A stretch of DNA of 64,000 bases, taken from NCBI GenBank assembly GCA_000165345.1, contig CM000430.1, positions 544,001 through 608,000 of the forward strand, read 5' to 3'. Within the stretch, counting starts at the first letter, position 1. Each line of letters opens with the position of its first letter. Shown here piece by piece: positions 20,411 through 42,625 of the stretch. The translations under genes and the position numbers were made by a program. The notes under the pieces are model-generated. The model did no database searches. It saw nothing but the letters and a program-made list of their open reading frames with translations, and had not been told where the DNA came from.

Positions 20411-21319
20411 TGACTCCCCGACCGACCGTCAAAGAATTAACAAAGGCTAAACTAGGGTATTAAAAGAGTTGAATACCTTTGTCAGTGCCCGTCTCTAGCC
20501 ACAACAGTTAGGAATCCAACTTACTCAATTTATATTGCTCCGTGTCTACGTTTTGAGAGACAAACACTCTCTCGAACTTTAGTCAACTCTAACTCTCAAG
20601 TAGCTTCTGACTGTTCTTTTCTTATTGCAACAGCCACTGCATTATTCGAGGGCCTATGCACTTCTTTTCGTGCTTAAAAATTTGAATATACTTGCAAATT
20701 TTAGTTCGCAAAATTAGACTCAAGGTTTACCGCCATCGACGCGCCTTCAGTGCCTAGACCCGCCTTGATTTGAATTAACACGTAAATGTTGATATTAATT
20801 TCAAATTGTTAATACCGCAATAGACGCAAATAGAAGATGGACATTAATTTCTCGAGAATAAATATGAGTCAACTTAGCTAGAATAATAGTACTTAAGCAC
20901 ACTAGGAGGTGAGGTATTCACAGCTTAATACGAGCTATTTTTCATTGCAATTATTTGGGAATTTTATTCTGGAAAGTATTGCATGCATACAATACCTTTA
21001 ATGGTGCAAGAATTTTTTTACTAGATGATATTCAATGTTTGGATTCTGTCGATATTTTTGTGAGAATAATTCTTGTTAAGCTATCCAAATTAATATATGC
21101 GAACATATTAATTCGTATTAATTACTTGCCTTGTTAGACGACTGAATATGCGTAAAATAGCTATTTTCAACCCTTCGAGATTCTTTGACTTGGAAAATAC
21201 AGTTTCTGTTTTTAAATATGGCTCTACTATACGCTCTAATGTTGTAAGTTTTGAACCTTTTATATCTTGATTTTGTCATTTATTGTAAAATCCACTCCAA
21301 TCAGGCTTTTAACACAAGA

Positions 21320-40675: not shown

Positions 40676-41006
40676 AGCTTGAAAACTTTGTTCATTTCTT
40701 GAATTAAAATAGACTGCAATATTTAGAATATGGAGGGTTTGTATAAATGCAGTACACTTAAATAAATGTTTACTTCTAATAAAAGGGAGCCTACCAATGA
40801 TTTAGAAATTTATTTATAGCGCAACTTTTTATTATTCAAATTTTATTTAGAATGTTAATAAATTAAGATTAGTTCGGAATAGCAACCTTTTATTAATTGA
40901 TAATGCTTTACAAATTTCTTTAGGTTTATTTGTTATTCGCATTAGCTAAAATTCATGAATTTCTCGCGCGCAGGAATTCTTTTCAAAAATAAATCATTAT
41001 TTCTTA

Positions 41007-41560
41007 ATGAACGAAAAAGAAATTTCATTTGCAGTTCCAACGGGTAAGTTAATTGCAATGTTTTATTTCAAATATATATTTGAAAATATATAATTTTTTT
41101 AATGATTGATTAATTCTTAATTCATTTATTAGGGACTCGCAAAATTATACAAATTCGAGATTCAAAAACAAATAAATCAACTACTAAAGAAAATTACGTT
41201 TTGAGGTTAAGGGCTTGCTTATCATGTCGAATAATTCTAAGTGATCAACAATTTTACGAAGGTGGGTGTCCAAATTGTACCCATCTTGCAATGGAATTTG
41301 ATCGCCAGAAGGTTAACTCTTGTACTTCAATGTCGTTTAAAGGGTAAGTATGATAACTGTAGAATGTCTGTTATTACAGAATGCTCAATAATGATAAAAC
41401 TAATTTATTGGTTAGAATGATATCTATGCTAAAGCCAAATGAATCATGGGTTGCAAGATACAATAAACTTTTGCCTAACATTGTACCAGGGTGCTATGCA
41501 GTTTCAGTTAGTGGAGATATGGTTTCAGATGACGAAGGCAATTATAATGGAGAATACTAA
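41007..41560 (+). CDS. SPT4: Transcription elongation factor SPT4 (DSIF small subunit), 3 exons
   Basis: Not in the ORF track. Exons are 41007..41043, 41133..41343 and 41416..41560 (TAA), with GTAAGT donors, introns of 89 and 72 nt and split Gly codons at both junctions. The spliced product has the Spt4 C4 zinc finger LRACLSCRIILSDQQFYEGGCPNCTHL...SCTSMSFKG and the NGN-binding block MISMLKPNESWVARYNKL...PGCYAVSVSG. Confidence 0.75.
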
Positions 41561-41603
41561 TTAATAAATCTCAACTATTTCATTCTTGTGGAACAAATCG
41601 AGT

Positions 41604-42625
41604 TTATTGATCCTTTTTATAAATTGCTAAATAATTTAATTTATTCATATTTTCACATTCAATAAAAATATTAGGCCCGGGAATATATATTGTTCCTGTT
41701 TTAGCTACTTTATATAAGCCATTTTTTCTTGCAAAACCATCAAGTTCATTCGGTTTAATAAACTTTCTCCAGCTATGTGTCCCCTATGTTCGTGAATTGA
41801 TTCGAAATAGTCAATCGAACTTACTTTTGGTATCATTTCAAAAATTTTCTCTCCAAAGATAATTGAGTATATGTAGCAAAGAACAGTTCGATTAAGTGTT
41901 GTAAACAATACGATTCCATCCTTTTTAAGTAAATTACCTGACCGGGTTACAGAGATAATAAATCTTAGGTATTGGAACTTACTTATTAATTTAACAAAAA
42001 TGCCTGGATTATTTACATGTTCAATAACCTCTGAAGCTACAATAATATCAAATATCTCACTTTTTTGTATGTGTTCGATTCCGCCTTTGAAATATCTCAG
42101 ACTCCTAGGTTTTGGCATACTATTCATGAAATTATTAAGTTCATTTTCATTATTGAATTTAGAGATTTCTTTAAAGCTGGTGGAATTACAAAGTGCATTT
42201 TTGTAAGCTATGTCTATAGACTTATAGGATGCGTCGACTCCAAGTACATCCCCTCCTAATTCTGAGAGTCTTTCCGAAAAAATTCCTGCGCCAGAGCCAA
42301 TATCCAATATCTTTTTGCCACTTAATGGACCATTTAAACTAGCAGACTTATTAGAAATATGTTCAAGCAAGAAACTTGTTCTCAAATGGTTAAATTTTAA
42401 TAGAATACTATCATGAGTTTCTGGGAACCAACTATAACTTGAATACGCATCAAAATTATTTATTTGCTTAGCGTCTATTGTACTAAATTTGTATGATCCA
42501 TAAATCTTGTTTTTCTGCAAAATACGCAAATAGTTTCTAAAATCTATTCCAAAGAATCTGTTATTTTCTAATGTTGAATAACAACTTGAAAATAGAGATT
42601 TTTTGAAAGAAAAATTCCTAAACAT
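41604..42625 (-). CDS. COQ3: Ubiquinone biosynthesis O-methyltransferase COQ3/UbiG family, 2 exons
   Basis: ORF-track piece 41705..42625 reads through a 41-nt intron (donor CCAAAA|GTAAGT at 41824, acceptor ...catag at 41784). Splicing exon 1 (41825..42625) to exon 2 (41604..41783) restores the conserved ...IPK|GTHSWRKFIKPNELDGFARKNG... (COQ3 VPKGTH.W.KFI.P.EL). SAM motif KKILDIGSGAGIFSERLSELGGDVLGVDAS and post-II motif FDIIVASEVIEHVNNP are present. Confidence 0.7.

What the first reader, a model, noticed from the sequence alone, without database searches (positions are those of the whole stretch)
40960..41830. SPT4 (3 exons) and COQ3 (3' intron) converge with only about 43 bp between their stop codons
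SPT4 is entirely absent from the ORF track because it is split into three small exons. The COQ3 track ORF is a read-through artefact: splicing its 41-nt intron restores the conserved GTHSWRKFIKP block. The two stops (41558-41560 plus strand, 41604-41606 minus strand) leave almost no room for non-overlapping 3' UTRs. The transcripts must overlap antisense at their 3' ends or use very tight terminators.
Basis: seen in the sequence. Interest (0 to 1): 0.5.

Follow-up and report, generated by a model that had tools for sequence, protein, structure and literature searches.

The report
Tail-to-tail SPT4 and COQ3 genes
Two ordinary, already annotated Cryptosporidium parvum genes (transcription factor SPT4 and ubiquinone methyltransferase COQ3) end 43 bases apart on opposite strands, which is normal crowding in this very compact parasite genome, not a new kind of feature.

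Summary
SPT4 (+) has exons 41007-41043, 41133-41343 and 41416-41560. That leaves a 43-bp spacer (41561-41603).

The window is Cryptosporidium parvum. The 130-aa SPT4 model matches GenBank proteins exactly.

It is in frame and has no stop, so it is invisible in an ORF track. Only the doubly spliced 311-aa protein matches an annotated product.

Orthologue alignments, profile scores (111.7, 153.2 and 168.8 bits) and exon/intron conservation in other Cryptosporidium species support every junction.

The tail-to-tail pairing is conserved across the genus, with spacers of 16-72 bp. Other convergent pairs in the window sit 74-209 bp apart.

I found no hairpin or poly(A)-signal evidence for a special terminator. 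Published work already reports frequent UTR overlaps in this genome. Overlap of the two 3' ends is likely but could not be tested here.

Verdict: real, correctly read, ordinary and already known.

The parts
41007..41043 (+). SPT4 exon 1 (ATG plus 12 codons and 1 base, MNEKEISFAVPT-G)
   Evidence: 78% of columns are invariant across 4 Cryptosporidium sequences with no indels, and the ATG and GTAAGT donor are invariant. It supplies the only start codon upstream of the zinc finger. The model matches annotated proteins exactly.
41044..41132 (+). SPT4 intron 1, 89 nt, GTAAGT...TAG
   Evidence: Only 38% of columns are invariant and there are indels, while both splice sites are conserved.
41133..41343 (+). 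SPT4 exon 2 (zinc finger C41-x2-C44-x13-C58-x2-C61)
   Evidence: The Pfam Spt4 PF06093 match begins here. It aligns to human SPT4 without gaps. 73% of columns are invariant with no indels.
41344..41415 (+). SPT4 intron 2, 72 nt, GTAAGT...TAG
   Evidence: 40% of columns are invariant, with indels. The junction SFKG|MISML aligns without a gap to human SFDG|IIAMM. The alternative acceptor at 41379 gives a 142-aa protein that is in no database.
41416..41560 (+). SPT4 exon 3, including the TAA stop at 41558-41560
   Evidence: 82% of columns are invariant with no indels. It completes the Pfam domain to position 77 of 77.
41561..41603 (.). 43-bp spacer between the two stop codons
   Evidence: It is the least conserved segment, 16-37% invariant. 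It folds no better than shuffled sequence, z -1.05 and -0.83. It holds an AATAAA at 41563-41568 that is not conserved in other species and is no more than chance predicts.
41604..41783 (-). COQ3 exon 3, including the TAA stop at 41604-41606 (GTHSWRKFIKP...KKDQ)
   Evidence: It aligns to the C-terminal third of UbiG/COQ3. With it, the UbiG profile is covered to position 227 of 228.
41784..41824 (-).
   Evidence: The orthologous intron in L001 is 43 nt. Removing it adds 41.5 bits to the UbiG score.
41825..41937 (-). COQ3 exon 2
   Evidence: 76% of columns are invariant. It aligns to orthologues without gaps.
41938..41982 (-).
   Evidence: If retained it is a 15-aa insertion absent from every orthologue. 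In L001 it is 46 nt with an in-frame stop, so it must be spliced there. Removing it adds 15.6 bits. It shows no codon-position pattern.
41983..42625 (-). COQ3 exon 1 (ATG at 42625; SAM-binding motif ILDIGSGAG)
   Evidence: Matches Pfam methyltransferase domains and the UbiG profile. dN/dS is 0.148 against the L001 orthologue for the whole CDS.

Best explanation
This is a stretch of a Cryptosporidium parvum chromosome carrying two ordinary nuclear genes that converge.

**SPT4** (130 aa) is the zinc-finger partner of Spt5 in the DSIF transcription-elongation complex. It is encoded in three exons on the + strand.

**COQ3** (311 aa) is the ubiquinone-pathway O-methyltransferase. It is encoded in three exons on the - strand. 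Its two very short introns are 45 nt (41938-41982) and 41 nt (41784-41824).

The two stop codons lie 43 bp apart. This reflects genome compaction, and the arrangement is ancestral to the genus.

The spacer is too short to hold two separate 3' UTRs with their cleavage and polyadenylation signals. The mRNA 3' end of at least one gene, probably both, most likely runs into the other gene's last exon. That would give a short convergent sense/antisense overlap with no dedicated terminator.

Shown here: the gene models, their identities and the conserved synteny. Inferred: the transcript overlap.
For: **Organism and annotation**
- Exact matches to C. parvum proteins: SPT4 130 aa = QOY42949.1/WRK31072.1, and COQ3 311 aa = QOY42947.1/WRK31073.1.
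- The paper describing that annotation states that its introns are 100% supported by RNA-seq (PMC8744675).

**Identity**
- Pfam Spt4 E=2.6e-29 over the full profile. Human and yeast SPT4 structures match at E about 4e-19, ungapped across the exon 2/3 junction.
- UbiG TIGR01983 scores 168.8 bits against a cut-off of 102.95. E. coli UbiG structure 4kdc matches across the MIPK|GTH junction.

**Splicing**
- Profile scores rise with each splice: 111.7 bits unspliced, 153.2 with the 41-nt intron removed, 168.8 with both removed.
- The 15 aa encoded by the 45-nt intron are an insertion absent from 11 orthologues.
- In a related species (L001) the same two introns are 46 and 43 nt, which breaks the frame. 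Removing them gives a clean 311-aa ORF.
- Exons are 62-82% invariant; the three SPT4 exons have no indels and the COQ3 exons only 1-3 gapped columns each. Third codon positions are 47-48% invariant against 70-94% at positions 1 and 2. Introns are 38-46% invariant and have indels.

**Function retained**
- dN/dS is 0.148 for COQ3 and 0.034 for SPT4, similar to or below the neighbouring genes.

**Synteny**
- SPT4 and COQ3 converge in C. muris (72-bp spacer), C. serpentis (66), C. meleagridis (45), L001 (44) and L002 (16).

**Ordinariness**
- Other convergent gaps in this window are 74-209 bp.
- The literature reports frequent UTR overlaps (PMC12179316) and a mean intergenic distance of 504 bp (PMC7840661).

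**No special terminator**
- No hairpin: z -1.05 and -0.83.
- AATAAA lies within 50 nt of a stop in only 3 of 27 genes, which is the chance rate.
- On the COQ3 strand the first AATAAA or ATTAAA is 195 nt past the stop, inside SPT4 intron 2.
Against: - No transcript 3' ends were examined. All public contigs I could retrieve for this locus were genomic.
- An AATAAA sits 3 nt after the SPT4 stop (41563-41568). If it were used, SPT4 mRNA could end inside the spacer without reaching the COQ3 coding sequence.
- Some compact eukaryotes have 3' UTRs of only 10-30 nt (my own knowledge), so two non-overlapping UTRs within 43 bp are not physically impossible.
- GenBank also lists the unspliced 306-aa product for the same locus (QOY42948.1), so intron retention may occur at some level.
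Confidence: 0.8

Rival explanations
1. Tight, non-overlapping 3' ends. Both mRNAs are cleaved and polyadenylated inside the 43-bp spacer, with 3' UTRs of about 20 nt each, so no sense/antisense overlap exists.
For: An AATAAA lies 3 nt after the SPT4 stop. Very short 3' UTRs are known in other compact eukaryotes (my own knowledge). The spacer is always greater than zero in the seven species examined, at 16-72 bp, so the coding regions themselves never overlap.
Against: - The AATAAA is not conserved in other Cryptosporidium species.
- The hexamer is not enriched after stop codons in this window: 3 of 27 genes, the chance rate.
- The COQ3 strand has no AATAAA or ATTAAA for 195 nt.
- One related species has only 16 bp between the stops, which cannot hold two UTRs.
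- The spacer is the least conserved segment, 16-37% invariant, and has no structure.
- The literature reports frequent UTR overlaps in C. parvum (PMC12179316).
Confidence: 0.12
2. The unspliced 306-aa ORF is a genuine protein isoform, produced by regulated intron retention, and not merely a mis-annotation.
For: [quoted passage not shown] GenBank lists both the 311-aa and 306-aa products for locus CPATCC_000639.
Against: - The read-through tail replaces the C-terminal quarter of the UbiG fold, ending at profile position 178 of 228, and costs 57 bits.
- The 15-aa insert is absent from all orthologues and shows no codon-position pattern.
- In L001 and L002 the same intron contains a stop just after the donor, so those ORFs end there.
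- The intron-encoded stretch differs more between parvum, hominis and tyzzeri than the flanking protein does.
Confidence: 0.07
3. The 3' overlap is functional. The conserved tail-to-tail juxtaposition lets each transcript regulate the other, through antisense pairing or transcriptional interference, or places each gene's 3'-end signals inside the partner's last exon.
For: - The pairing is conserved from gastric to intestinal Cryptosporidium species.
- There is a weak excess of identical synonymous codons in the two facing terminal exons: 41/70 against 88/213, Fisher p=0.013. For COQ3 pairwise, the last 59 codons score 0.72 against 0.54, p=0.048.
- Two neighbouring genes in tandem context show no such excess.
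Against: - The synonymous-site test was post hoc. It uses 3-4 sequences that are not independent, and dS is near saturation at 1.1-1.7. The individual p values are marginal.
- Synteny is conserved across the whole neighbourhood (SYF2, the PH-domain gene, DFRP_C), so the pairing need not be selected for itself.
- SPT4 is unchanged in species where COQ3 has decayed or been deleted.
Confidence: 0.08

Closest known systems
Annotated C. parvum SPT4 (Spt4/RpoE2 zinc finger; QOY42949.1, WKS76580.1, WRK31072.1)
   Same: Identical 130-aa sequence and the same three-exon structure.
   Different: Nothing differs. The older Iowa II record XP_001388224.1 is a 124-aa 'partial' protein that starts inside intron 1 and lacks exon 1.
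Annotated C. parvum COQ3 / 3-demethylubiquinol 3-O-methyltransferase (QOY42947.1, WRK31073.1, 311 aa)
   Same: Identical to the product obtained here by removing both introns.
   Different: The legacy record EAZ51398.1 and the C. hominis and C. tyzzeri records still give the unspliced 306-aa ORF.
E. coli UbiG / eukaryotic COQ3 (TIGR01983; structure 4kdc)
   Same: It has the SAM-dependent Rossmann-fold methyltransferase features: motif I, the EHV motif and the C-terminal PKGTHxxxKFIxPxEL block. It scores 168.8 bits, above the equivalog cut-off.
   Different: Relative to other COQ3/UbiG it has a Cryptosporidium-specific insertion of about 25 aa, roughly residues 146-175. Motif I reads GSGAG where the consensus is GCGGG. 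It also has an N-terminal extension of about 45 aa.
Convergent gene pairs with overlapping 3' UTRs in compact eukaryotic genomes (cis-natural antisense, tail-to-tail type)
   Same: Two Pol II genes converge with an intergenic spacer shorter than a normal pair of 3' UTRs. This is reported as frequent in C. parvum (PMC12179316, PMC7840661) and is well known in yeasts (my own knowledge).
   Different: The overlap itself was not observed here. At 43 bp this pair is at the short end for this window, where the other gaps are 74-209 bp.

Membership tests
Spt4 (Pfam PF06093, Spt4/RpoE2 zinc finger) | Profile match above the curated gathering score over the whole domain | tested here: met
   101.6 bits against a cut-off of 25, E=2.6e-29, profile positions 1-77 of 77, residues 38-115.
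Spt4 (Pfam PF06093, Spt4/RpoE2 zinc finger) | Four-cysteine zinc-binding motif C-x2-C...C-x2-C | tested here: met
   C41, C44, C58 and C61 in RACLSC...GGCPNC. They align with the cysteines of human SPT4, LRACLLC...DGCDNC.
Spt4 (Pfam PF06093, Spt4/RpoE2 zinc finger) | Heterodimer with the Spt5 NGN domain (DSIF) | not testable with these tools
   No interaction data. Inferred from homology to chains in solved Pol II-DSIF complexes.
COQ3/UbiG O-methyltransferase (NCBIfam TIGR01983) | Equivalog profile score above the curated cut-off over the full profile length | tested here: met
   168.8 bits against 102.95, profile 2-227 of 228, for the doubly spliced protein. The unspliced ORF reaches only profile position 178, at 111.7 bits.
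COQ3/UbiG O-methyltransferase (NCBIfam TIGR01983) | SAM-binding motif I (LDxGxGxG) and the conserved acidic and EHV residues | tested here: met
   ILDIGSGAG. The residues D108, G110, G112, G114, D131, E199, E202, H203 and V204 are invariant in a 13-sequence alignment.
COQ3/UbiG O-methyltransferase (NCBIfam TIGR01983) | C-terminal PKGTHxxxKF block | tested here: met
   Present only after the 41-nt intron is removed: MIPKGTHSWRKFIKP against E. coli MVPKGTHDVKKFIKP.
COQ3/UbiG O-methyltransferase (NCBIfam TIGR01983) | O-methylation of ubiquinone intermediates | not testable with these tools
   No enzymatic data. The literature lists C. parvum as having the ubiquinone pathway (PMC5146892).
Spliceosomal GT-AG introns | Canonical donor and acceptor at positions conserved in orthologous genes, with a diverged interior | tested here: met
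   All four introns begin with GTAAGT and end with AG. The splice sites are conserved in L001 and L002, and for SPT4 also in C. ubiquitum. The interiors are 38-46% invariant and have indels.
Spliceosomal GT-AG introns | Spliced junctions seen in RNA | not testable with these tools
   No RNA reads were accessible. The paper describing the matching annotation says its introns are 100% RNA-seq supported (PMC8744675).
Convergent cis-natural antisense transcript pair | Convergent orientation with a spacer shorter than two 3' UTRs | tested here: met
   The stops are at 41558-41560 (+) and 41604-41606 (-), leaving a 43-bp spacer.
Convergent cis-natural antisense transcript pair | Mature transcripts that actually overlap | not testable with these tools
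   Only genomic contigs were retrievable. The overlap is inferred.

The most novel reading that the evidence does not exclude
The genus-wide SPT4/COQ3 tail-to-tail pairing, with spacers of 16-72 bp, forces each gene's cleavage and polyadenylation signals into the partner's last coding exon. Those exons would then be under double constraint, hinted at by a weak excess of synonymous-codon identity (p about 0.01-0.05). The two mRNAs could also be coupled through a 3' antisense overlap. Where COQ3 has decayed (C. ubiquitum, C. felis, and possibly C. meleagridis), its remnant would persist because it still serves as the SPT4 3' flank.
Probability: 0.08. Interest if true: 0.35.

Novelty: already known. 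Interest (0 to 1): 0.1.

Why it matters
It matters little beyond quality control.

- It shows that a sequence-only reader can recover a small multi-exon gene and a frame-restoring intron in a compact apicomplexan genome.
- It also shows the limit of that approach. An in-frame, stop-free 45-nt intron cannot be seen without orthologue alignment.
- For annotation, the C. hominis, C. tyzzeri and legacy C. parvum COQ3 records still give the unspliced 306-aa protein. That protein lacks the conserved C-terminal quarter and should be corrected.
- The close convergence is one more example of the known crowding that makes UTR boundaries hard to call in Cryptosporidium.

Tried and rejected
- **Alternative SPT4 models.** Starting at the ATG at 40955 breaks the frame. 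The acceptor at 41379 gives a 142-aa protein that is in no database and would insert 12 residues relative to human SPT4.
- **Terminator-like structure in the spacer.** Folding of 41540-41625 on either strand is no better than shuffled sequence.
- **Poly(A) signal.** AATAAA and ATTAAA after the stops of 27 window genes are not enriched, so the AATAAA at 41563 cannot be called functional.
- **Transcript contigs in public assemblies.** All retrievable contigs carrying the COQ3 ORF were genomic. Neither spliced protein has a Logan source.
- **Literature on this locus.** Searches for gene identifiers found nothing. Searches for Cryptosporidium 3' UTR lengths or poly(A) signals found no locus-specific or numerical data.
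- **Non-coding RNA.** A scan of the whole window against Rfam gave no hits.
- **COQ3 as a decaying gene in C. parvum.** Rejected. dN/dS is 0.148, like its neighbours, and all invariant residues are kept.

Full report
**What is in the sequence**

The region is AT-rich; the window as a whole is 32.6% G+C.

On the + strand an ATG at 41007 opens a 37-nt exon ending at a GTAAGT donor (41044). An acceptor ending at 41132 opens a 211-nt exon, which ends at a second GTAAGT (41344). An acceptor ending at 41415 opens a final exon that runs to a TAA at 41558-41560. The spliced product is 130 aa.

On the - strand the ORF from the ATG at 42625 reads through a GTAAGT...ATAG element of 41 nt (41824..41784). 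Removing it changes the tail from ...MIPKVSSIDYFES... to ...MIPKGTHSWRKFIKP... and moves the stop to TAA at 41606..41604.

The two stops are therefore separated by 41561-41603, which is 43 bp. Every coordinate in the finding is correct. SPT4 is indeed invisible in a 60-aa ORF list, since its largest open pieces are 48 and 59 aa.

**Identity of the two genes and of the organism**

The 130-aa product matches Pfam Spt4 over the whole profile (E=2.6e-29). It aligns to human SPT4 from solved Pol II-DSIF complexes without a gap across the exon 2/3 junction: SFKG|MISML against SFDG|IIAMM. It has the four zinc-binding cysteines.

The - strand product matches E. coli UbiG (structure 4kdc). The alignment runs straight across the spliced junction: MIPKGTHSWRKFIKP against MVPKGTHDVKKFIKP.

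An exact-sequence look-up identifies the organism as Cryptosporidium parvum. The 130-aa SPT4 is identical to QOY42949.1, WKS76580.1, WRK31072.1 and KAL5370077.1. The older Iowa II record is a 124-aa 'partial' protein that starts inside intron 1. No in-frame ATG lies in exon 2 ahead of the zinc finger, so exon 1 is needed to supply the start codon.

The UbiG alignment broke around residues 215-230. The - strand there carries a second GTAAGT...CAG element of 45 nt (41982..41938). It is in frame and contains no stop.

The exact look-up settles the matter:
- The protein with both introns removed (311 aa) is identical to QOY42947.1 and WRK31073.1.
- The unspliced 306-aa ORF is the legacy product (EAZ51398.1), a second product of the same locus (QOY42948.1), and the form annotated in C. 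hominis and C. tyzzeri.

In an alignment with animal and bacterial COQ3/UbiG, the 15 residues encoded by the 45-nt element are an insertion found in no orthologue. Once they are removed, EHVNNPGIFVKLISNLLKKDG aligns without gaps.

The NCBIfam UbiG profile measures each step:

| Model | Score | Profile covered |
|---|---|---|
| Unspliced, 306 aa | 111.7 bits | 2-178 of 228 |
| 41-nt intron removed, 326 aa | 153.2 bits | 2-227 |
| Both introns removed, 311 aa | 168.8 bits | 2-227 |

**Comparative support**

I retrieved the locus from other Cryptosporidium genomes. DNA alignments give the pattern expected of real exons and introns:
- The three SPT4 exons are 73-82% invariant, with no indels.
- The SPT4 introns are 38-40% invariant, with indels.
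- The COQ3 exons are 62-76% invariant and the COQ3 introns 44-46%.
- Third codon positions are 47-48% invariant, against 70-94% for positions 1 and 2.
- The 45-nt element shows no codon-position pattern.

All GTAAGT donors and AG acceptors are conserved. In one related species (L001) the two COQ3 introns are 46 and 43 nt. Both lengths break the frame and the first intron carries a stop. Removing them gives a clean 311-aa ORF. C. muris has exon breaks at the same two protein positions.

The paper describing the matching C. parvum annotation states that its introns are 100% supported by RNA-seq (PMC8744675).

COQ3 is under purifying selection. Its dN/dS is 0.148, close to the neighbouring genes at 0.120 and 0.145. 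SPT4 is at 0.034.

**How unusual is the 43-bp spacer?**

The tail-to-tail pairing is ancestral to the genus:

| Species or locus | Spacer |
|---|---|
| C. muris | 72 bp |
| C. serpentis | 66 bp |
| C. meleagridis | 45 bp |
| L001 | 44 bp |
| C. parvum | 43 bp |
| L002 | 16 bp |

Within this window the other convergent ORF pairs are 74, 119, 139, 169, 199 and 209 bp apart. Two larger gaps may hide small genes. So 43 bp is the shortest here but belongs to the same distribution.

The literature gives a mean intergenic distance of 504 bp (PMC7840661). [quoted passage not shown]

**Do the transcripts overlap?**

I could not test this. All public contigs I could retrieve for the locus are genomic.

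The sequence gives no support for a special terminator:
- The spacer and its flanks fold no better than shuffled sequence, z -1.05 and -0.83.
- The spacer is the least conserved segment.
- The AATAAA 3 nt after the SPT4 stop is not conserved in other species.
- That hexamer lies within 50 nt of a stop in only 3 of 27 genes, which is the chance rate.
- On the COQ3 strand the first AATAAA or ATTAAA is 195 nt downstream, inside SPT4 intron 2.

My inference is that at least one 3' UTR, probably both, extends into the partner's last exon. I put this at about 0.8. The rival, two UTRs of about 20 nt that do not overlap, stays possible at about 0.12.

**A weak lead**

Among codons whose amino acid is conserved, identical codons are somewhat more frequent in the two facing terminal exons: 41/70 against 88/213, Fisher p=0.013. 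For COQ3 pairwise the figures are 0.72 against 0.54, p=0.048. Two neighbouring genes in tandem context show no such excess.

The test was post hoc. It uses few sequences that are not independent, and dS is near saturation. I treat it as a hint of double constraint, not a result.

**Verdict**

Both gene models are already in GenBank, and crowding with overlapping UTRs is a documented property of this genome. This is an ordinary, already known feature.

Noticed in passing
window 41938-41982 (- strand): A second COQ3 intron of 45 nt. [quoted passage not shown] The C. hominis and C. tyzzeri records still carry the unspliced 306-aa protein.
   Followed up: yes
L003 4605-5269 (C. ubiquitum); L007 3620-4449 (C. 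felis); L006 3576-4123 (C. ryanae): COQ3 is a pseudogene remnant next to an intact SPT4 in C. ubiquitum, with many stops and 1-, 2- and 4-nt gaps. Only weak fragments remain in C. felis. It is absent from the 548-bp gap in C. ryanae. For C. ubiquitum this fits the published loss of ubiquinone synthesis (PMC5146892).
   Followed up: partly
L013 2006-3020 (C. meleagridis, GCA_039657295.1): COQ3 has an in-frame stop at the otherwise invariant W66, and the invariant D131 is replaced by E. The record annotates only a 145-aa 3' fragment. This could be early pseudogenisation or an assembly error. Only one assembly was examined.
   Followed up: partly
window 40964-40971 (+ strand): The GC-rich motif TCGCGCGC lies 36 nt upstream of the SPT4 ATG. 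It occurs only once in the 64-kb window. Its CGCGCG core is invariant in the four aligned Cryptosporidium sequences, while the flanks are poorly conserved. It may be an E2F-like promoter element, which is my recollection and was not tested.
   Followed up: partly
L002 1121-1179: In one unidentified Cryptosporidium species (Logan SRR31861040) the COQ3 reading frame runs past the position of the parvum stop. Only 16 bp are left between the two stop codons.
   Followed up: partly
window about 42100-42190 (- strand; COQ3 residues about 146-175): A Cryptosporidium-specific insertion of about 25 aa (CNSTSFKEISKFNNENELNNFMNSMPKPRS) relative to animal and bacterial COQ3/UbiG. It is conserved as coding sequence in L001 and L002.
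   Followed up: no
L003 4001-4558 (C. ubiquitum SPT4); proteins P0005 and P0006: The C. ubiquitum SPT4 record and one C. canis record use a different intron-1 acceptor, giving 123 and 122 aa where other species have 130. In the C. ubiquitum locus, the only one of the two whose DNA was examined, the TAG|GA acceptor of the 130-aa model is conserved. This is probably an annotation inconsistency.
   Followed up: partly
window 41416-41557 and 41607-41783: A weak excess of identical synonymous codons in the two facing terminal exons: combined 41/70 against 88/213, p=0.013. Two neighbouring genes do not show it. The test was post hoc and the sample is small.
   Followed up: partly
window 20411-22715: A 2.3-kb stretch between two large - strand ORFs has no ORF longer than 90 aa and no Rfam match. 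It could hold a multi-exon gene, long UTRs or a lncRNA.
   Followed up: no
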